64,000 bases of DNA from a virus (IMGVR_UViG_3300027810_000002:32001-96000); one strand, 5' to 3'. Shown: positions 34,350 through 58,471, counted from the stretch's first letter. Numbers and translations: made by a program. Notes: generated by a model not told the origin, from the sequence alone.

Positions 34350-34703
34350 TTATATATAGACTCCTAATTGGAATCTAGAATCTACTGTAATGTCTAAAAA
34401 GACTACGTGGTTTGATACGCCATCGACTACTTCGATGCCAACACTAACACTATATTTAGAAGCAAGCGGAATATATTCTGCTATTTGATCATCAATAATT
34501 GTTTTTAGTTGAAAATCGTTGTATCTAAATTCATAAACATAATCTTCTAAATTTGCTCCAAAATTAGGTTGCCCCAATACTTCTCCTTTTCTTGTGAAAA
34601 GCATTGTTTGTATCTGAGTTAACAACATCGACAGTTCGCTGTCTTGTTGCATTACATCAGCCTTGTAACCAGGTTCTCCTATATTTTTTACGTAAAACTC
34701 CAT
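34350..34703 (-). CDS. Baseplate protein (gp25-like)
   Basis: LFTRKGEVLGQPNFGANLEDYVYE. Confidence 0.85.
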   Translation of the reverse strand: MEFYVKNIGEPGYKADVMQQDSELSMLLTQIQTMLFTRKGEVLGQPNFGANLEDYVYEFRYNDFQLKTIIDDQIAEYIPLASKYSVSVGIEVVDGVSNHVVFLDITVDSRFQLGVYI

Positions 34704-35566: not shown

Positions 35567-36859
35567 TTAAACTTCGTTGTATAGGATCTTTTCAGTTCCT
35601 TTAAACTTTGCTAATTTTTTATCGTATCTTCCTTCTCTAAATATACCGTCTTCCATGGAACCTTTTAAGATACCATCACCATATATATAACCATCTTTTA
35701 TTTTAACACTTTGGTGAATATAGCAGCTTTTTAACTTTGAAGAAATAATTTCACAGTTATCATAAAAATTACAATCATAAATATCAGATCCTGTTACAGT
35801 ACATTTAAACAAATCACAATAAAATAGTTCGCCACGAATATCGCATTCAATAAAATCATATCTTTCAAGTTCAACACAATATTGTAATTCACCTTTATTT
35901 ACCTGTATTTTACCGGTATCTGAGTCATAATTAATATGTCCTTTGATTAGTGATCCATGTGTAAAAAGTCTTATTACTCTTTCTTTAATATTTTGCCAAT
36001 GTAAATCTAAAATTTGTGGATCTTTTCTTAAATCAACAGTAAACTCTACGTTTTTCCAGTTTTTTTCAATATGTCTCCAATTTGATCTGGCATCGAGTAT
36101 TCTTTTATTCTCAGCCAATATCCTCTTTAACTCTATTGCATTAAGTTGTGTGAAATGATTATCTTCAGTCGAATTCCAAAGTTGTAATAGGAATTGATCT
36201 AACATGTATAAGATCGATGTTGTTTTCTTTTCCCAATCCTTTCCTCCAACATATCTAAATTCTAAATAGTTCTTATGTCTTTTGTCGAAATTGATTCCAT
36301 AGTATTTAGAATCAGGGTAGATAAAGTTTTGTGAGTGTATGTGTTCTCCGTTAAAGAAACTCATACCAGTCTTAGGTAATACGAATTTTATAGATTTAGC
36401 ATAAGCTGAATCCTTTCTGGTTGGAAAGAACTTAAATACTTGATCTTCTTTAAAATCAAGTATAAATTTAAGAACATTCATTTTAGAAACCCTATTCTTA
36501 TCCTTAATTTTATTTTTATCAAAAGATATGTTTAAGTGAATTGATGATCTATCCGTAGTATATCCGTTTTCTTCAATCCATTTACATACATTAATGATCA
36601 TTAATCTAGCACTGTAATATGGTATTGCACCTGTTACGAGCTCCATTAGCTTTGCACCACCGCTCATATCTGGTTCTAGTTTAAAATGATCAGCGGTCGG
36701 CTCAAATTCACTATGTGCTTTGTCTTCTATTTGAATCTTCTTATTTAAAAGAATTCCAATCTTTTTCGCTGTTTCTTCGATAGGGAGATTTGAATAAAAT
36801 TCAAACTCGACCCCTACCAATGCGTTTTTTAGTATTTCTGAATCATTAAATGTGTTCAT
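35567..36859 (-). CDS. Putative amidoligase (COOH-NH2 ligase) with C-terminal beta-helix repeats
   Basis: GVEFEF, D.S, ELVT, SSIHLN, KYYGIN, YLEFR; Cys-rich pentapeptide-like C-terminus. Confidence 0.75.
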   Translation of the reverse strand: MNTFNDSEILKNALVGVEFEFYSNLPIEETAKKIGILLNKKIQIEDKAHSEFEPTADHFKLEPDMSGGAKLMELVTGAIPYYSARLMIINVCKWIEENGYTTDRSSIHLNISFDKNKIKDKNRVSKMNVLKFILDFKEDQVFKFFPTRKDSAYAKSIKFVLPKTGMSFFNGEHIHSQNFIYPDSKYYGINFDKRHKNYLEFRYVGGKDWEKKTTSILYMLDQFLLQLWNSTEDNHFTQLNAIELKRILAENKRILDARSNWRHIEKNWKNVEFTVDLRKDPQILDLHWQNIKERVIRLFTHGSLIKGHINYDSDTGKIQVNKGELQYCVELERYDFIECDIRGELFYCDLFKCTVTGSDIYDCNFYDNCEIISSKLKSCYIHQSVKIKDGYIYGDGILKGSMEDGIFREGRYDKKLAKFKGTEKILYNEV

Positions 36860-37744: not shown

Positions 37745-37818
37745 TAAATATAACACTTTTTATTGAAACAAAAAAACTTTTGTGCATTTATTTTGTAATT
37801 TATAATGATTATAAATAA
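37745..37818 (-). promoter_or_regulatory. Early-type promoter plus 7-1-7 palindrome (Fur/PerR-like box)
   Basis: 22 bp identical to 54990-55011; TTATAATGATTATAA at 37800-37814. Confidence 0.6.
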
Positions 37819-37819
37819 G

Positions 37820-37850
37820 AAAGGCCCAAACATAAAATGAATGGGCCTTT
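37820..37850 (-). terminator. Rho-independent terminator after the S1 gene
   Basis: AAAGGCCCA-loop-TGGGCCTTT inverted repeat. Confidence 0.75.
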
Positions 37851-37872: not shown

Positions 37873-39141
37873 TTAGATTTTCAAGAAAATCTTTCTAGAG
37901 TCTGCGTCGATTCTAGTAACCTGTACTGTAATATTATCTCCAGGTTTGATAGTTTCTAAATCTATAACATCTTCGATTTCTGAAATATGTAATAGCCCAG
38001 CAACTCCTTTTTCAATGTCTACAAAGATACCATAGTCTTTTACTGCTCGAACTGTTCCAACAATTTCACTTGGTGTTTTGATTCTATCAGTAATACCATC
38101 CCATAAGTCAACGACTGGTTTTGCATCTAATTGTGTTAGGATAATCTTTTCGTTTGATACAACTTCTTTAATCTTAAATGCAATATCATCTCCGGGTTTA
38201 ATTTCCCTAGCTCTATGTGCTTTTAATAATTCAGGAGTTAGATCATTAACGTGAATCATTCCAGTTAAACATTCATCAAACTCTACAAATACTCCGTATT
38301 TCGCAGAACCTGTAACTTTACCAGTAAGATCTTGTGTTAGATTTTCCTTTAGTGCTTCAATTTTAGAAGGAATCATTGCTTTTAAGTATTCTCTGTGAGA
38401 TACTACAATAGTTCCTCTTTTTTCTGAGAAGCTTACAGGAACAACATACATATCGCTTCCTACAATAGATTCAAAGTCTGCTAATTTGTTAATTCCAGCT
38501 AAAGAACCTGGCATAAAACATTCAACCCCCTGTACTGTTACAATATAACCTCCACCTGGTATCATTTGAGAAACTGTACCCATATATCCGGTTGCACCGT
38601 CTTTAATGGATTCCATTATTTCTTTAACAACTGCTGATTTAATACCTGCACTGATAGATCCTAATACAAATCCTCGGCCTTCTCCCATTTGAAGAACTTG
38701 AATCTTAACCTCGGCGTCTGGGACAAATAATCCTCTAACGCTAACTTCTTCTTTTAAGACGTTAACATATACATTTTCACGATACCCGATGTCGACTGCA
38801 ACCCACTCTTTGTTTATACTAAAAATAGTACCTGAGTAGATTTCACCAACCCCAATCTTCATCTGAGCTGGTCTAGCCTCTTCATGACCGTTAAAAAGAT
38901 CTAAAAGATCCTGAGCATACGGCTCATGAGAATATACACTGTATTTACCTGTGTTTTTAAGTCCTTTGTTTATCTTTCTAGATCTTGAAGGACATGACGC
39001 TTGGTGAGCATCCCAATCGAATTCTTCGATTGGAACATTAGCATTTTCTAAGTATGCTAATTTGTCATTTTTTTTTGTTGTTTGAGCGACTGGTTCTTCT
39101 TTAGTTAGTCGTACTCTTTTTGTTTTAACGTCTGTGGACAT
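37873..39141 (-). CDS. rpsA: Ribosomal protein S1-like protein (four S1/OB domains)
   Basis: VAVDIGY, VECFMPGS, YGVFVEF..GMIHVNDL, YGIFVDI..GLLHISEI; N-terminal PIEEFDWDA. Confidence 0.85.
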   Translation of the reverse strand: MSTDVKTKRVRLTKEEPVAQTTKKNDKLAYLENANVPIEEFDWDAHQASCPSRSRKINKGLKNTGKYSVYSHEPYAQDLLDLFNGHEEARPAQMKIGVGEIYSGTIFSINKEWVAVDIGYRENVYVNVLKEEVSVRGLFVPDAEVKIQVLQMGEGRGFVLGSISAGIKSAVVKEIMESIKDGATGYMGTVSQMIPGGGYIVTVQGVECFMPGSLAGINKLADFESIVGSDMYVVPVSFSEKRGTIVVSHREYLKAMIPSKIEALKENLTQDLTGKVTGSAKYGVFVEFDECLTGMIHVNDLTPELLKAHRAREIKPGDDIAFKIKEVVSNEKIILTQLDAKPVVDLWDGITDRIKTPSEIVGTVRAVKDYGIFVDIEKGVAGLLHISEIEDVIDLETIKPGDNITVQVTRIDADSRKIFLKI

Positions 39142-39206
39142 TCTTTTTTTAATTTAAATTGTTAATAATAGTGAATAAATAATTTTATAGGTTATATATA
39201 CTTTTT

Positions 39207-41060
39207 TTAAAATGAGAGCGGCATGAATCCTACCATAGGGATTGGACCACCTGGTGTTGCTATTCCACCTAAATATAAAAACTTTAATTTTAATAAGTGC
39301 TTTGCACATGCTCCTGCAAATGCTGTTGCAACTAAAGTGGCAGCAACCGGAGTTGCTGGAGGAACTTCAAAAAACTTACCATTGTTCCATGCTCTTCTTA
39401 AATCGTTTGCAAGTGATGTCTTACTACCATATGATATTGGTGCAAACACGCCAAGTAATGGAGGAGTTATATTACATGGTGGTATTGGAGGCCCACTTGT
39501 AAACGGCTGAACTGCTGCTGATTGCCAGTATTTAATAATAGCACCTGCCATTATCTCATACGGATCCTCGCCGTCTTCCTCTTGATCCTGTGAGTTTACC
39601 TCTTCCATGTAGTTGGCCCACTTTCTTTGAGTTTCCCACCATCTTTCTTGCTCTTTTTTATAGAGTGAATCCTTTTCACGTCTTCGCCATATTCGACCTA
39701 TGTTGTTAGTGTACATTAAAATCTTTCCATCAATGCTCGGAACGTATGTGAAGGCTTTAATTAAACCTTGTTTTATTTCTGCTGGTATTTCTTCTGGCCT
39801 TTGCTTATGCTCTTCTTGAAAGACATATTGATTAATCTGATAATCCGAAGTAGACAGGGGAGGTACGATAAGTTTACTTGTTAAAGAATATTTATTACCT
39901 CCATCTTTTATTACTTTATTTCTTTCTTCTTTTTCGGCACTTCTCCATTCTTTTTCTAAAAATTTTATTTTATCGTATATCTTTCTAGAAAGAGCCCGGT
40001 AGTTATACGGTATCTCTGTTCCATACCTTAGAAGCTCTACCCATAGCTTATATCCTTTTGAATTATCATTCCTTTTTAGAATTCTATTAACTAGAACATT
40101 TATTCTTTCTTCTTCTGTAAGATCTGGTATAGTATTTCTAACAGGCTTAGTAATATTTTCTGGATATCCTGCAGCGTATCCTTGTAACTTTTCATCAATA
40201 CCACTTAGCTTCTCTAATACTCCACCATCGCTTATAGTAATTGATTTAGTCTTATTTATTATTTTAATTAAAGATTTACCGGACATATCTAGTATTTCTT
40301 TAAATGTATATGTATATTTACCAGGAACTGCAGGTATGTTTATTACGGTAAAGGCAGTATTATTGCCAGCTCCGCTTCCGGAACCGCTACCAGAGCCCGA
40401 TGATGTCGAGCCAGAACCTACTGAACCTACTGTTAGCAAAGGCTGTTCAATTTCGTTTATTGTATATCTTATTTTAAAAGACTGTTCTGGATTAAATTTT
40501 TTAATTATAAATCGAACAACGTAATTATGAGATGGTGCGTTTATATCTGAACTTGCTTTAGTAACTACACTAAAATCTATATCTCCGTCATTCGTGGTGT
40601 CATTTGGATCCTCCTCTGGATATGGAACCGGGCATGTTGATTCATATAGGGGATAGTAATTGAACTTCTGAAGAGTGTCTGTGTTCTCTGAGGTCCATTT
40701 TTCTATCTCACACTGTGCGTCAAATGTTAAATCGGCTTCTGGGAGTATTTCAGTAATAGACTGATACTGCGATAAAGTTTTTCTATCCTCAAGAGAGGTT
40801 TCATAATCTTCAAAAAGCTTTTTAAATGCCTTGTCAAAGCCTTCCGTCAACACAGTCTTTACGCCAGCATTACTATGTGTATTTCCGAATGGGGTTTGTG
40901 CTGTTGATACTGCGGCAACATATTCATCTGCTAGAAACGAGGCAAAGTCGCCAATGCCCGGAGTATGTGGAGGTACCTGAGGTAATCCCATACTCTCTGC
41001 ACTTCTTGCTATTAGTTTTGCAGATACGTTATTAATAAATAAAGGCCATTTTGCCGGCAT
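39207..41060 (-). CDS. Hypothetical baseplate-associated protein with Pro-rich C-terminus
   Basis: 617 aa, next to the gp5-like gene, preceded by GATATATA at 41081-41088. Confidence 0.55.
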   Translation of the reverse strand: MPAKWPLFINNVSAKLIARSAESMGLPQVPPHTPGIGDFASFLADEYVAAVSTAQTPFGNTHSNAGVKTVLTEGFDKAFKKLFEDYETSLEDRKTLSQYQSITEILPEADLTFDAQCEIEKWTSENTDTLQKFNYYPLYESTCPVPYPEEDPNDTTNDGDIDFSVVTKASSDINAPSHNYVVRFIIKKFNPEQSFKIRYTINEIEQPLLTVGSVGSGSTSSGSGSGSGSGAGNNTAFTVINIPAVPGKYTYTFKEILDMSGKSLIKIINKTKSITISDGGVLEKLSGIDEKLQGYAAGYPENITKPVRNTIPDLTEEERINVLVNRILKRNDNSKGYKLWVELLRYGTEIPYNYRALSRKIYDKIKFLEKEWRSAEKEERNKVIKDGGNKYSLTSKLIVPPLSTSDYQINQYVFQEEHKQRPEEIPAEIKQGLIKAFTYVPSIDGKILMYTNNIGRIWRRREKDSLYKKEQERWWETQRKWANYMEEVNSQDQEEDGEDPYEIMAGAIIKYWQSAAVQPFTSGPPIPPCNITPPLLGVFAPISYGSKTSLANDLRRAWNNGKFFEVPPATPVAATLVATAFAGACAKHLLKLKFLYLGGIATPGGPIPMVGFMPLSF

Positions 41061-41088: not shown

Positions 41089-41829
41089 CTATTTACCAGT
41101 CTGTTGATAATCTATGTGAGTACTTTTAAGTTCTGCAACAGTTGACGGTGTCGGTGCTGCTGGGAAACCAGAGGGCCCAACCCCTGTTGGGTGAAAGTGG
41201 TAATTGTAATCATCTAGTAATTTGTTTAACCATTTCTCTAAAGAAACTCCTCGAACTGCAGGTTCACTAATGTCCTCCGTCACGTCACTACCGTCTACTG
41301 CTTCACCAGTGTTACTTAAAAATATATCACCAGAATCTAGAAATAGCTTTTGATCGGTAGATATCTTAATAATACCTTCTTCGTCGATTTGTATAAGCGG
41401 TCTTTCCTTTGGCCCAGATCCTCTTGAGATTACTAAACCGTCTTTAGTTGATGAATATATTCTTATGTTTCGTTCGGCATCATATACTAAACTAACAACA
41501 TCATGCGCATTATCAGGATCTTGTTCTAAAACTTCTGATTTAAGATCCTTATTTTGGTTAATTTGAAACCAGTATTCAGGATGGTATATGTTACCATTGT
41601 CAAATCTCACTGCAACAATATCTCCAACTCTTGGAATTGAATGTGCTCCTGCATTATCTCTATTCATTGGGGTTGCCCATGGAATTGATTCATTTTCTAA
41701 TAAATCAAACTTACCATAAACTTTAACTCGACATCTTCCTAAAAGAGAAGGATCTACATTATCAACCACCTCACCTAACCAGTGAGTTTCCCTAATATTA
41801 TCTTTTTCTAGTTCCTTGTCTCTTGCCAT
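41089..41829 (-). CDS. Baseplate central spike (gp5/gpV-like OB-fold, no lysozyme)
   Basis: GEVVDNVDP..LGRCRVKVYG, IPWATP, PRVGDIVAV.F, C-terminal HFHPTGVGPSG. Confidence 0.85.
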   Translation of the reverse strand: MARDKELEKDNIRETHWLGEVVDNVDPSLLGRCRVKVYGKFDLLENESIPWATPMNRDNAGAHSIPRVGDIVAVRFDNGNIYHPEYWFQINQNKDLKSEVLEQDPDNAHDVVSLVYDAERNIRIYSSTKDGLVISRGSGPKERPLIQIDEEGIIKISTDQKLFLDSGDIFLSNTGEAVDGSDVTEDISEPAVRGVSLEKWLNKLLDDYNYHFHPTGVGPSGFPAAPTPSTVAELKSTHIDYQQTGK

Positions 41830-50780: not shown

Positions 50781-51812
50781 TTAAATGATAGTTTCTTTAC
50801 CATCAATAATGTCCTGATAGTTAACTCGACCCTTAGATCTTTTAATTTGATCTTCATTTTCTTCTAAGTTTATTTTATAAATAGGTCTAATATACTCTTC
50901 ATTTAAATACGTCTTGAACTCCTGTGTTAGTTGTTCTTTATAAAAATCCTCGTATACCGCAACATAAACTCTAGCCATTTTATCTGCTGCCATTCCTGAA
51001 GCTGAATTGATCTCAGCAACCCAACATTCACCAGATTTATCTACCATTAAATCAATTGACCAAAGCCCAAGCTTTAATTTTTCTCTAACAGTTTTGCAGA
51101 TATCAGTTATTTTATCCATAAAATCTAATTTACTCACATCTTGATCGACGTATGTAAATTCAGTTTTTTCATCTGATTTTTTATCTTTAATTTCATTCTC
51201 AGTCGCTGATACTCTTTCATGAACTAATATTACAGTATCATTTACTAATAAAATTCTAAATTCAGTATCTAGATCTTTAGCTTCTGAATAGTTTTGAAAT
51301 TCTCCTTTACTTTTTTCTAAGTCTTCATAAGAATCGAAAATCTCAATACCCATTCCGGAGTGTCCATCATCTGGTTTTGCAATTACAGGAAATTCTAAAT
51401 CTTTTGTATCTTCTTTTTTATACACAGCCTTTGGTATAAAATCTGAATCTTGAAACATTTTATAAAAGTCAGTTTTATTACCAGCAATCTTCATAGCTTC
51501 TGGTACATTGTACATAACGTCCTCTGACATATTATACTTCTCTAAAAAATCTAAGCCTTCTTTTGTATTTCCACCATAATAAATAAGAGGTAGCTTTGAG
51601 TTGACTTCTAAATCCTTTCCATAATCTCCCTTTGCATAAAAAGCATTGTATAATTCTTTTAAACAAATTTCATTTACTTCGCCATATATACTGTTGTCTG
51701 TGCCGGTAAGGCCTCTTACCTTTTCTCCCGCCAATATAAAATTAACTTTTTTTAGATAATCTTTATTAGATTTTTCAAATAGAAATCTCTCGAATAGTTT
51801 GACTCTTTTCAT
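50781..51812 (-). CDS. ATP-grasp ligase (RimK-like) with capsid-targeting-like tag
   Basis: MKRVKLFERFLFE; FPVIAKPDDGHSGMGI, EFRI, IDL, EINS. Confidence 0.8.
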   Translation of the reverse strand: MKRVKLFERFLFEKSNKDYLKKVNFILAGEKVRGLTGTDNSIYGEVNEICLKELYNAFYAKGDYGKDLEVNSKLPLIYYGGNTKEGLDFLEKYNMSEDVMYNVPEAMKIAGNKTDFYKMFQDSDFIPKAVYKKEDTKDLEFPVIAKPDDGHSGMGIEIFDSYEDLEKSKGEFQNYSEAKDLDTEFRILLVNDTVILVHERVSATENEIKDKKSDEKTEFTYVDQDVSKLDFMDKITDICKTVREKLKLGLWSIDLMVDKSGECWVAEINSASGMAADKMARVYVAVYEDFYKEQLTQEFKTYLNEEYIRPIYKINLEENEDQIKRSKGRVNYQDIIDGKETII

Positions 51813-57250: not shown

Positions 57251-57439
57251 TTATTCTGGATTGTTAAATTTTTGCTCGACGTATTTCGCTTTTTGTAATT
57301 TAACACGTTTTGCTGCTGAAGGTTTGGTATAATCTTTACCTTCGCGAAGGGCCTTAGTTTGGCCTGTTCTATTTACTTTATATTTAAATGACTTTAAAGC
57401 CTTTTCTATGTTTCCTTTTTCTACCTTGATTATTAGCAT
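57251..57439 (-). CDS. rpsU: Ribosomal protein bS21
   Basis: MLIIKV..GNIEKALKSFK.K......L.....YTKPSAAKR...QKAKY. Confidence 0.9.
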   Translation of the reverse strand: MLIIKVEKGNIEKALKSFKYKVNRTGQTKALREGKDYTKPSAAKRVKLQKAKYVEQKFNNPE

Positions 57440-57687
57440 TTTATCTTGTCAATAATTTTTTTAATGTTAGAACATTTTTCATATTCTTCTAATCCTATAA
57501 AAAAGTTTAATATACTAGTTAGTGCATTTACTTTTTCTTTAGGATCTGTTTCGCTCTTAAGAGCTTTCTCTTCTCCATTAACAACTGCATTATAAATCAT
57601 GTTCATCATTGTTTCCTTTGAATCTTCTCTAAGGATTTCAATTCTATTTGAATTATCTTTTTCGGGAGTGTCTCCTAAATCATGCAT
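57433..57687 (-). CDS. Hypothetical protein with UVR-like EEYEKC motif
   Basis: FFIGLEEYEKCSNIKK. Confidence 0.6.
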   Translation of the reverse strand: MHDLGDTPEKDNSNRIEILREDSKETMMNMIYNAVVNGEEKALKSETDPKEKVNALTSILNFFIGLEEYEKCSNIKKIIDKIKC

Positions 57688-58471
57688 TGCTTAGTTCTTT
57701 AATTTGCTGAATGTGTTCTAATTGTTTTTCACTTAACTCAATATTAGATGTTCTTAATTTAATCATTAAGTTACCATATTGATTTTTATTATATATCGGA
57801 AATCCCATGCCCATAATTCTTAAAATCTTACCATCATATGAGTTCTTAGGTACCTTTATCTTAACGCTATTTACTTTCGTGGTAACTTCAAATTCGCCAC
57901 CTAATAAAATATCATAAAAGGGTAGATTGTAATCCATCCAAATATCTCCATTAGTTACTATCATCTCAGGATCTGGCATGATATTCATTATTAATATAAC
58001 ATCACCATTTGGCGCCGAAGAATTAGCAGGATGTGGAAGTCCCTTTCCTTTTAATTTAAGCTTAGCTCCTTCATGAATTCCTTTCGGTATATTAACATTA
58101 AATGCAGAGTGTGTTGTATCTATTCTTTTAGTTGTTCCGTGGTAAACTTCTTCTAAAGTTAGTCTAATTCTAATTGTAACGTCTGATCCTCTTGCATTTT
58201 GGTTAAATGCGTTATCAAACATATTAGAGAAATCTCCACCGAATTGATTAAAGAAATTGTCGAATCCACCTGAACTAAAAGAATTTTTGAGATCATATTC
58301 CTTTTTCTTTTGGGAATCGCTCAATGTTTCGTATGCTTGTGAAATCTTTTTAAATTTATCTTCAGATCCTCCAATATCAGGGTGGTGGACTTTAACAAGA
58401 CCTCTATATGCCTTCTTAATATCCTCCTGACTAGCAGCGGGCTCGAGCCCCAGGATCTTATAGTAATCCAT
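57680..58471 (-). CDS. dnaJ: DnaJ/CbpA-type (class B) co-chaperone
   Basis: DYYKILG, HHPD, G/F linker, DnaJ_C domains, no Zn finger. Confidence 0.9.
   Translation of the reverse strand: MDYYKILGLEPAASQEDIKKAYRGLVKVHHPDIGGSEDKFKKISQAYETLSDSQKKKEYDLKNSFSSGGFDNFFNQFGGDFSNMFDNAFNQNARGSDVTIRIRLTLEEVYHGTTKRIDTTHSAFNVNIPKGIHEGAKLKLKGKGLPHPANSSAPNGDVILIMNIMPDPEMIVTNGDIWMDYNLPFYDILLGGEFEVTTKVNSVKIKVPKNSYDGKILRIMGMGFPIYNKNQYGNLMIKLRTSNIELSEKQLEHIQQIKELSNA

What the first reader, a model, noticed from the sequence alone, without database searches (positions are those of the whole stretch)
37873..39200. Phage-encoded four-domain ribosomal protein S1 under a late promoter
Seen: four S1 domains (Gram-negative host S1 usually has six), an N-terminal extension, its own late motif (39193) and terminator, embedded in the virion gene block. 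The segment NVPIEEFDWDAH resembles, from memory, the N-terminal ribosome-anchoring region of Bacteroidota S1. Phage S1 genes have been reported in huge phages but are uncommon and, to my knowledge, little tested. Inference: it replaces host S1 to bias initiation toward AU-rich or leaderless phage mRNA.
Basis: partly seen in the sequence, partly recalled or inferred. Interest (0 to 1): 0.7.

Follow-up and report, generated by a model that had tools for sequence, protein, structure and literature searches.

The report
Phage-encoded four-domain ribosomal protein S1
An uncultured marine giant phage of Flavobacteria-like hosts carries its own shortened ribosomal protein S1 that keeps the ribosome-docking and mRNA-binding parts, probably to help late phage messages get translated; such phage S1 genes are already known and turn out to be common.

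Summary
Window 39141-37873 (-) encodes a 422-aa protein colinear with domains D1-D4 of bacterial bS1. It has its own TATATAA promoter-like box (39198-39192) and a hairpin terminator (37850-37812), and it sits inside a T4-like baseplate module. It is specific to class Bacteroidia bS1, where a 2026 cryo-EM paper shows it contacting uS8. A second conserved helix (residues 72-89) matches the uS2-docking helix. A predicted complex with a Flavobacterium-type uS2 passed its controls (0.67 against 0.00) but may reflect likeness to solved S1-S2 structures. The phage genome lacks Shine-Dalgarno sequences and also encodes bS21. The protein belongs to a large S1 clade found on phage contigs (at least 590 IMG/VR contigs). 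The clade includes the Lak and Al-Shayeb huge-phage S1s and is separated from all cellular S1 by a long branch. Its position after the baseplate hub is conserved. Substitution for host S1 is plausible but untested, and the leaderless-mRNA idea has no support. Phage S1 has been reported since 2019-2020, and this scan already found and followed up the same kind on other DNA. Verdict: a new member of a known kind, of moderate interest.

The parts
39192..39198 (-). TATATAA promoter-like box ('late motif'), 57 nt upstream of the start codon
   Evidence: Found 35 times in sense against 8 antisense in upstream intergenic DNA, with shuffles at 12.7 +/- 3.6. It precedes the gp6-like, gp25-like, amidoligase-like and S1 genes. 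It is conserved upstream of S1 in L002-L005. 'Late' is inferred from its association with structural genes.
39142..39191 (-). A/U-rich leader without a Shine-Dalgarno sequence (…AAATTAAAAAAAGA ATG)
   Evidence: Sequence read. Genome-wide, 2 of 199 genes have an SD 5-mer, and A peaks at -11 to -14 and at -3.
37873..39141 (-). CDS for the 422-aa four-domain bS1 homologue (P0001); the stop codon is at 37873-37875
39040..39141 (-). Residues 1-34: basic, predicted disordered N-terminal tail (MSxDVKTKRxR...)
   Evidence: pLDDT is below 50. It is conserved only among close relatives and absent in P0095/P0107.
38980..39033 (-). Residues 37-54: FDW helix (PIEEFDWDAHQASCPSRS), counterpart of the uS8-contacting helix of Bacteroidia bS1
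   Evidence: F41 and W43 are invariant in A1/A3. The model shows helices at 43-49 and 51-54. The motif occurs in 24/31 Bacteroidia S1, 0/30 S1 of the phylum-wide sample, and 0/30 other cellular S1. F. johnsoniae FLANFNWHNF contacts uS8 (PMC13000457).
38929..38979 (-). Residues 55-71: phage-family-specific linker, about 24 aa longer than in Bacteroidia bS1
   Evidence: The FxW motif lies 57 aa before D1 in the phage family and 33 aa before D1 in Bacteroidia. N58 and S71 in the linker are invariant in the close family, as are C50 and P51 just upstream in the FDW part.
38875..38928 (-). Residues 72-89: pre-D1 helix (HEPYAQDLLDLFNGHEEA), counterpart of the uS2-docking N-terminal helix of bS1
   Evidence: E73, Y75 and A76 are invariant. 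The model shows a helix at 76-89. In the predicted complex, residues 67-86 touch the uS2 F33 region. E. coli F5/F9 stack on S2 F32 (PMC4288201).
38656..38850 (-). Residues 98-162: S1 domain D1 (ribosome-binding type)
   Evidence: Aligns with E. coli D1. The D117-R121 loop corresponds to E. coli D39-K43 and touches uS2 16-19 and 204-209 in the model.
38398..38595 (-). Residues 183-248: S1 domain D2 (CFMPGSLAGINKL, like E. coli AFLPGSLVD)
   Evidence: D1-D2 superpose on ribosome-bound S1 D1-D2 with TMt 0.69-0.71.
38128..38340 (-). Residues 268-338: S1 domain D3 (RNA-binding type; YGVFVEF…GMIHVND)
37876..38079 (-). Residues 355-422: S1 domain D4 (canonical; YGIFVDI…GLLHISE…RIDADSRK)
   Evidence: Best Pfam S1 stretch at 361-421.
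37812..37850 (-). Intrinsic terminator: 9-bp GC-rich stem (AAAGGCCCA/UGGGCCUUU) followed by a U-rich tract
   Evidence: Fold energy -18.7 kcal/mol, z -5.2, 0/200 shuffles as good. A comparable hairpin follows S1 in L002-L005.
57251..57439 (-). Associated gene: phage-encoded ribosomal protein bS21 (62 aa), 18 kb upstream in the same genome
   Evidence: PF01165 scores 39.6 bits against a cut-off of 27. It is 45% identical to a Flavobacterium-type bS21, and Tyr53 aligns with the signature Tyr54 (PMC7797042).

Best explanation
The gene encodes a phage version of ribosomal protein bS1 trimmed to domains D1-D4. The phage is an uncultured marine T4-like myophage of roughly 265 kb. Its host is most likely a member of class Bacteroidia, probably a marine Flavobacteriaceae. 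The gene is transcribed from its own TATATAA promoter together with the baseplate and neck genes, which I infer to be late. It is translated from an A-rich, SD-less leader. The protein docks on the host 30S platform in the way host bS1 does. The FDW helix binds uS8, and the EPYAQDLLDLF helix plus the D1 loop bind uS2. D3-D4 then capture single-stranded A/U-rich leaders. This supplements or displaces loosely bound host bS1 when very large amounts of structural protein must be made. The phage's own bS21 may act at the same mRNA-exit platform. Shown here: homology, domain map, conserved docking motifs, promoter and terminator, synteny and clade. Inferred: ribosome binding (in silico only), timing, and any preference for phage mRNA.
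For: Residues 94-420 are colinear with E. coli bS1 D1-D4. rpsA models are the best NCBIfam hits. The AF2 model has four OB barrels, and the top Foldseek hits are ribosome-bound bS1. The family conserves two N-terminal motifs. FDW is shared only with class Bacteroidia bS1: 24/31 against 0/30 and 0/30. In F. johnsoniae this helix contacts uS8, and the bS1 N-terminus sits on uS2 and uS8 (PMC13000457). The predicted complex of residues 30-185 with Flavobacterium-type uS2 scored ipSAE 0.67 against a best control of 0.00. That mark was reached by 58 of 80 solved complexes and 2 of 110 mismatched pairs. Runs agreed in at least 79% of contacts, and partner pLDDT was at least 76. The contacts mirror E. 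coli F5/F9-F32 and K43-D205 (PMC4288201). D1-D3 suffice for 30S binding, mRNA binding and RNA melting in E. coli, and loss of D5-D6 has little effect (PMC3858243). The genome has an SD 5-mer in 2/199 genes and A-rich leaders. [quoted passage not shown] A phage bS21 with the Bacteroidia signature Tyr lies in the same window. The gene, its promoter box, its terminator and its position after the baseplate hub are conserved down to 37% identity.
Against: There is no experimental evidence of ribosome association for any phage S1. The complex prediction may pass by likeness to solved S1-S2 structures, and it used a stand-in uS2 from another Flavobacteriaceae-like genome. Scores are far below the curated rpsA cut-offs (157 against 524 bits), and a long branch separates the phage clade from all cellular S1, so the function may have drifted. 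E. coli F9 is replaced by Leu79. The phage-specific 24-aa linker could change the geometry. The conserved placement inside the baseplate module is unexplained by a purely translational role. bS21 accompanies S1 in only 6 of 15 long related records.
Confidence: 0.6

Rival explanations
1. It is a virion-associated or injected protein. The S1 homologue is made late, packaged with or near the baseplate or tail, and delivered into the next host cell. There it acts on ribosomes or RNA immediately, or it has been co-opted as an OB-fold structural part.
For: The gene sits directly after the baseplate hub cluster in three diverged lineages with 37-53% S1 identity. It is under the same TATATAA box as the baseplate genes. 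Packaging of phage bS21 has been raised as a possibility in the literature (PMC9723584).
Against: The gene has its own promoter box and its own terminator, so it is a separate transcription unit. Canonical RNA-binding D3/D4 and both ribosome-docking helices are conserved. It lacks the MKxVKLFE-type N-terminal tag that another first-stage reader noted on putative cargo proteins in this window (unchecked).
Confidence: 0.12
2. It is an off-ribosome RNA-binding factor. The protein acts free in the cytoplasm as an RNA chaperone, a protector of mRNA, or a cofactor of a phage enzyme. Host S1 plays such roles for Qbeta replicase and for T4 RegB.
For: S1 has well-documented extraribosomal roles in phage biology (PMC13157829 discussion; PMC4288201 on Qbeta). 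[quoted passage not shown] The protein is highly diverged from cellular S1.
Against: Keeping the Bacteroidia-specific uS8 helix and the uS2 helix with invariant residues across the family is hard to explain without ribosome docking. The same surfaces could, however, bind another partner, as happens in Qbeta replicase.
Confidence: 0.15
3. It is a dominant-negative shut-off factor. The truncated S1 occupies the uS2/uS8 site and blocks host bS1. This depresses host translation rather than stimulating phage translation.
For: It lacks D5-D6 and keeps all docking elements. Host bS1 is loosely bound and exchangeable (PMC7797042).
Against: D3 and D4 keep RNA-binding-type signatures. In E. coli, D1-D3 already retain full activity (PMC3858243). 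Phage leaders are themselves SD-less and A-rich, which is the class of mRNA that benefits from bS1.
Confidence: 0.1

Closest known systems
Bacterial ribosomal protein bS1 (RpsA) of class Bacteroidia (e.g. Flavobacterium johnsoniae)
   Same: It has an N-terminal helix-loop-helix with the FxW aromatic helix and a pre-D1 helix. D1-D4 are colinear, and D3/D4 are of the RNA-binding type. It works in an SD-less translation system.
   Different: It has four domains instead of six (422 aa against about 590-690 aa open frames). It carries an extra basic tail of about 35 aa and a linker about 24 aa longer between the two helices. Identity is only about 25-30%. It scores far below the rpsA cut-offs and does not nest within Bacteroidia in the tree, although a sister position is not rejected (AU p 0.33).
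E. coli bS1
   Same: Residues 94-420 align with 16-344. The counterparts of F5, D39 and K43 (Y75, D117, R121) lie in the predicted uS2 interface.
   Different: E. coli bS1 has no FxW helix. F9 corresponds to Leu79. D5-D6 are absent from the phage protein.
'Possible rpS1' of huge phages (Al-Shayeb et al. 2020, PMC7162821) and the S1 of Prevotella Lak megaphages
   Same: They fall in the same clade (SH-aLRT 100) and are of similar length. The Lak protein has both the SFDWSPY and YSHESYAQDLYD motifs. The association with genomes lacking SD sequences is shared.
   Different: This copy comes from a smaller (about 265 kb) marine phage. Here the docking motifs, the promoter, the terminator and the baseplate synteny are mapped. 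Several Al-Shayeb phage copies lack the FDW motif.
Phage-encoded bS21 (Mizuno 2019; Chen 2022, PMC9723584)
   Same: It is also a ribosomal protein of the initiation platform, encoded by Bacteroidota phages, placed among structural genes, and proposed to substitute into host ribosomes late in infection.
   Different: It is a different protein. bS21 expression and incorporation have some experimental support, and S1 has none. bS21 was found in only 6 of 15 long S1-bearing records.
bS1 of jumbo cyanophage PhiMa05 (PMC13157829)
   Same: It is a phage-encoded bS1.
   Different: That copy groups with Vampirovibrio ribosomal proteins, which points to a host-like acquisition. This one belongs to an old, highly diverged clade known only from phage contigs.

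Membership tests
bS1 / RpsA (TIGR00717, NF004952 and related equivalogs) | Tandem S1 (OB) domains colinear with D1-D4 of bS1 | tested here: met
   residues 94-420 against 16-344, E 2.7e-37; model positions 31-371/580.
bS1 / RpsA (TIGR00717, NF004952 and related equivalogs) | Whole-protein score above the curated equivalog cut-off, with the six-domain architecture of Gram-negative bS1 | tested here: not met
   157.1 bits against a cut-off of 524, and 145.7 against 577. D5 and D6 are absent.
bS1 / RpsA (TIGR00717, NF004952 and related equivalogs) | N-terminal helix plus D1 loop that dock on uS2 | tested here: met
   The EPYAQ[DE]L[LY]DL helix is conserved. The predicted interface with uS2 mirrors the E. 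coli contacts, scoring 0.67 against a control of 0.00 (PMC4288201). This is an in silico result only.
bS1 / RpsA (TIGR00717, NF004952 and related equivalogs) | Physical presence on the 30S subunit | not testable with these tools
   This needs ribosome binding or proteomics.
Bacteroidia-type bS1 | N-terminal aromatic FxW helix (F. johnsoniae FLANFNWHNF) that contacts uS8 | tested here: met
   F41 and W43 are invariant. The motif occurs in 24/31 Bacteroidia S1, 0/30 S1 of the phylum-wide sample and 0/30 other cellular S1; PMC13000457. The spacing to D1 is 57 aa against 33 aa.
Bacteroidia-type bS1 | Phylogenetic placement inside or beside Bacteroidia bS1 | tested here: inconclusive
   The free tree puts the phage clade on a long branch outside all cellular S1. 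Holding phage and Bacteroidia together costs 9.9 lnL, with AU p 0.33.
Phage short-S1 clade (Lak and huge-phage 'rpS1') | Falls in the clade of ~370-450-aa four-domain S1 proteins from phage contigs | tested here: met
   The clade of 36 rows has SH-aLRT 100 on a quick tree. At least 590 IMG/VR contigs carry a relative.
Phage short-S1 clade (Lak and huge-phage 'rpS1') | Gene placed just downstream of the baseplate hub cluster | tested here: met
   Seen in the window, in L002-L005 and in L109/L110. It was not examined in the Lak or Al-Shayeb genomes.
Non-ribosomal S1-domain proteins (PNPase, RNase R, GSP13/CvfD, NusA, Tex, Rrp5) | Best match to these families, or the presence of their catalytic or partner domains | tested here: not met
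   Only single-domain, much weaker hits appear (1e-20 to 1e-8 against 5e-46 for rpsA). No other domain is present.
Firmicutes-type four-domain S1 (NF005208) | Score above the cut-off for the ~390-aa four-domain form | tested here: not met
   123.4 bits against a cut-off of 368.

The most novel reading that the evidence does not exclude
Phage bS1 and phage bS21 together rebuild the mRNA-exit platform of the Bacteroidia 30S subunit into a phage-specialised ribosome. On this reading, the phage-specific Cys-Pro-bearing linker between the uS8 helix and the uS2 helix reaches bS21 or the sequestered 16S 3' tail. That contact would give selective initiation on A-rich late phage leaders. A variant of this reading is that S1 is carried in the virion and acts from the first minute of infection.
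Probability: 0.2. Interest if true: 0.75.

Novelty: new member of a known kind. Interest (0 to 1): 0.42.

Why it matters
Whether phage-encoded S1 proteins are true ribosomal proteins has been an open point since 2020. [quoted passage not shown] This copy shows that a very widespread clade of S1 proteins on phage contigs keeps both docking helices now known from the F. johnsoniae 30S structure. That makes the question directly testable with the existing F. johnsoniae in vitro initiation system. It also links phage S1 to phage bS21, the protein on which stable binding of the bS1 N-terminus depends in Bacteroidia. If substitution occurs, these abundant marine phages make their own specialised ribosomes in hosts that do not use Shine-Dalgarno pairing.

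Tried and rejected
- Megablast of 15 kb of the window against the phage collection found no match.
- PHROGs has no family for the protein.
- A phmmer search of residues 1-100 against PDB gave only noise.
- A profile of the N-terminal region against PDB aligned the pre-D1 helix to a plastid S1 homologue. It did not align the FDW helix to any chain.
- I expected the D1-D4 core to be closest to Bacteroidia S1, and it is not. Median family-HMM scores are 100 for Bacteroidia, 121 for the phylum-wide Bacteroidota sample and 109 for other cellular S1. The tree cannot place the origin.
- Only the N-terminal motif points to Bacteroidia. It could reflect ancestry or adaptive mimicry.
- The PHROG label 'ribosomal protein S6 glutaminyl transferase' for the 343-aa protein at 50781-51812 was checked with Pfam. 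It came back only as a generic ATP-grasp ligase, so I do not count it as a third ribosome-directed gene.
- The leaderless-mRNA idea was considered and dropped for lack of support.

Full report
**What is there**

The window is bases 32001-96000 of a 175,162-bp IMG/VR virus record. CheckV estimates it at about 66% complete, which implies a genome of roughly 265 kb. GC content is about 32%, and 176 of 199 called genes lie on the minus strand.

The ORF at 39141..37873 (-) encodes 422 aa. Pfam finds the S1 domain at 91 bits with three passing stretches. The best NCBIfam hits are eleven rpsA (30S protein S1) models at E 5e-46 to 3e-24. All of them are colinear over model positions of about 15-370, and all are far below their curated cut-offs, for example 157 against 524 bits. 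Single-domain S1 proteins such as GSP13/CvfD, PNPase and RNase R score much lower.

Against PDB sequences, residues 94-420 align with E. coli bS1 residues 16-344, which are domains D1-D4. An AlphaFold2 model built on 70 relatives has mean pLDDT 85.9. It shows a disordered basic tail (residues 1-31), short helices at 43-54, a helix at 76-89, and four OB barrels joined by long helices. Foldseek puts ribosome-bound bS1 chains first (9gut_B, E 3e-28). The D1-D2 part superposes on ribosome-bound S1 D1-D2 with TM 0.69-0.71. The four-domain S1 with an N-terminal extension is therefore real.

**Signals around the gene**

A TATATAA box lies at 39198-39192, 57 nt before the ATG. In the whole record this heptamer occurs 35 times in sense and 8 times in antisense within upstream intergenic DNA. 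Shuffled sequences give 12.7 +/- 3.6. The box precedes the gp6-like wedge, gp25-like, amidoligase-like and several other genes. Calling it 'late' is an inference from that company.

A second, different motif (AAAAAGTGTTATATTTA...TATAAT, nine copies) precedes mostly small genes. One of them is the 73-aa ORF right after the S1 terminator.

The same 'cgtaTATATAAac' box and a hairpin terminator flank the S1 gene in relatives whose S1 is only 53% identical. The terminator here (37850-37812) folds at -18.7 kcal/mol, z -5.2.

**Context**

Upstream lies a gp5/VgrG-type hub OB protein (41089-41829) and a 617-aa protein of no known family. Downstream lie three small ORFs, an amidoligase-like protein, and gp13-, gp25- and gp6-like baseplate and neck proteins.

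The order hub - unknown - S1 - ... - amidoligase - gp13 - gp25 - gp6 is kept in contigs whose S1 is 53% identical. The upstream block (163/177 aa, 498/494 aa, 393/484 aa, hub) is recognisably kept next to S1 proteins only 37-38% identical. S1 is thus an old, stably inherited resident of this module.

**The N-terminus**

The family conserves two motifs ahead of D1.
- The first is FDW[DE]A[HY], with F41 and W43 invariant.
- The second is vYS.EPYAQ[DE]L[LY]DL at residues 68-82.

I reached them through a Flavobacteriaceae MAG that carries a related phage contig. From there I sampled its phylum and its class.

| Sample | Sequences with F[DNSEL]W before D1 |
|---|---|
| Class Bacteroidia bS1 | 24 of 31 (three more have I/V-D-W; one is masked) |
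| Phylum-wide Bacteroidota sample (30 best-scoring bS1) | 0 of 30 |
| Other cellular S1 | 0 of 29 |
| E. coli | 0 of 1 |
| Phage family representatives (including this one) | 31 of 70 |
| Prevotella Lak phage | present |

The motif is therefore a Bacteroidia-specific feature shared with the phage family.

A 2026 cryo-EM study of the F. johnsoniae 30S subunit modelled bS1 residues 4-40 as a helix-loop-helix. The aromatic helix FLANFNWHNF contacts uS8, and the N-terminus sits stably on uS2 and uS8 (PMC13000457). One sampled genome carries exactly that sequence (L068). The counterpart of the classical uS2-docking helix (E. coli ESFAQLFEESL, with F5/F9 stacking on S2 F32; PMC4288201) is residues 72-89 and not the FDW segment. 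In the phage family the two helices are about 24 residues further apart than in Bacteroidia.

**In silico docking**

I folded residues 30-185, with their alignment, against a Flavobacterium-type uS2 with an alignment of 25 Bacteroidia uS2 sequences. The score was ipSAE 0.67 in all three runs, against 0.00 for the best of three controls. That mark was reached by 58 of 80 solved complexes and 2 of 110 mismatched pairs in the tool's calibration. At least 79% of contacts agreed between runs, and partner pLDDT was at least 76.

The interface uses S1 residues 67-86 against the uS2 F33 region. It also uses the S1 loop 117-125 against uS2 16-19 and 204-209. This is the same geometry as E. coli F5/F9-F32 and D39/K43 at the zinc pocket. 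Because S1-S2 complexes are solved, the pass shows likeness and not proof of binding. The uS2 is also a stand-in host protein.

**Host and translation system**

Only 2 of 199 genes have an SD 5-mer within 20 nt of the start. Leaders are 50-65% A, with peaks at -11 to -14 and at -3. This resembles the Bacteroidia pattern described for F. johnsoniae (PMC13000457).

PF01165 scores 39.6 bits. The protein is 45% identical to a Flavobacterium-type bS21, and Tyr53 aligns with the signature Tyr54 that stacks on A1534 (PMC7797042).

In F. johnsoniae, density for the bS1 N-terminus is lost without bS21, and bS1 stimulates SD-less initiation. A phage that carries both is therefore suggestive. However, bS21 was found in only 6 of 15 long S1-bearing IMG/VR records, all of them fragments.

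The evidence points to a marine member of class Bacteroidia as host, probably a Flavobacteriaceae. It consists of Tara and marine sources, the MAG bin (weak), the FDW motif, the bS21 tyrosine and the lack of SD sequences.

**The family**

More than 120 clusters at 90% identity share at least 48% identity with this protein at 396-440 aa. In the 50% library there are 225 representatives at E < 1e-30, mostly of 340-450 aa and ranking ahead of cellular S1.

In a quick maximum-likelihood tree of D1-D4 (87 rows, 326 columns), all short forms make one clade (SH-aLRT 100). This includes five huge-phage copies (four from uncultured huge-phage records, LR7xxxxx, attributed from memory to Al-Shayeb et al. 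2020, plus Lak-B5). A branch of about 2 substitutions per site separates the clade from every cellular S1. Bacteroidia S1 is monophyletic, and the phage clade is not nested in it. Forcing phage and Bacteroidia together costs 9.9 lnL and is not rejected (AU p 0.33), so the origin is open.

I checked phage context directly for only a few members. No cultured phage in the phage collection carries this gene.

**What is known**

Viral bS1 was suspected from marine viromes before 2019 (PMC6375957). Huge-phage 'possible rpS1s' and their link to genomes without SD sequences were published in 2020. The authors stated that true rpS1 status is hard to confirm and that the role may be on or off the ribosome (PMC7162821). 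The 2022 paper on bS21 phages of Bacteroidetes does not mention S1.

This scan has noted the same four-domain S1 in several other genomes. One follow-up (e1-5343299) reached essentially the same reading.

**Verdict**

The protein is a bS1 homologue of the clade of four-domain S1 proteins found on phage contigs. It is not a full rpsA equivalog, because the cut-off and six-domain criteria are not met.

The best mechanism is ribosome docking through uS8 and uS2 with mRNA capture by D3-D4 late in infection (confidence about 0.6). E. coli deletion work supports this, showing that D1-D3 suffice (PMC3858243).

The rivals are virion delivery, an off-ribosome RNA factor, and dominant-negative shut-off.

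Novelty is modest: a new member of a known kind. What this analysis adds is a precise map of the docking elements, their Bacteroidia specificity, the conserved baseplate synteny and the co-encoded bS21.

Noticed in passing
window 57251-57439 (-): Phage-encoded ribosomal protein bS21 (62 aa; PF01165 39.6 bits). It is 45% identical to a Flavobacterium-type bS21, and Tyr53 aligns with the Bacteroidia signature Tyr54. It was found in 6 of 15 long S1-bearing IMG/VR records.
   Followed up: yes
window 57680-58471 (-): A full DnaJ-type co-chaperone (J domain plus DnaJ_C) is encoded close to the bS21 gene, separated from it by an 84-aa ORF.
   Followed up: partly
window 37745-37775 (-) and eight other places in the genome: A second promoter-like motif of about 30 nt (TCAATAAAAAGTGTTATATTTA(A)CTATA(T)AATAA) occurs in nine copies 36-46 nt upstream of mostly small genes on both strands. 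It is distinct from the TATATAA box and may mark another temporal class.
   Followed up: partly
window 35567-36859 (-): A 430-aa protein with a weak N-terminal Amidoligase_2 match is conserved next to S1, between S1 and the gp13-like gene, in relatives (L002-L005). Its role in a baseplate and neck module is unexplained.
   Followed up: no
window 50781-51812 (-): A 343-aa ATP-grasp ligase lies under a TATATAA box. PHROGs labels the family 'ribosomal protein S6 glutaminyl transferase', but Pfam supports only a generic ATP-grasp (Dala_Dala_lig_C, ATP-grasp_3). A RimK-like action on bS6 would be interesting but is not supported.
   Followed up: partly
window 39207-41060 (-): A 617-aa protein with no family match has a Gly/Ser-rich linker and a hydrophobic Gly/Pro-rich C-terminus. 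It always lies between the hub gene and S1 in close relatives (553 aa there). The 441-aa protein at that position in L110 shows no detectable similarity.
   Followed up: partly
window 34350-34703, and several genes elsewhere in the genome outside the window: In about 7 of 35 cases the TATATAA box starts only 10-14 nt before the ATG. This would give leaderless or nearly leaderless transcripts if the box acts like a -10 element. Transcription start sites are unknown.
   Followed up: no
G001 (Flavobacteriaceae MAG SAT1509), contigs C26 and C33: This MAG holds a 57.8-kb contig with a phage-type S1 (51% identical) and, on another contig, a second low-scoring bS21 (38 bits) beside the host copy. These are probably phage contigs binned with the MAG, which is a weak host hint.
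   Followed up: partly
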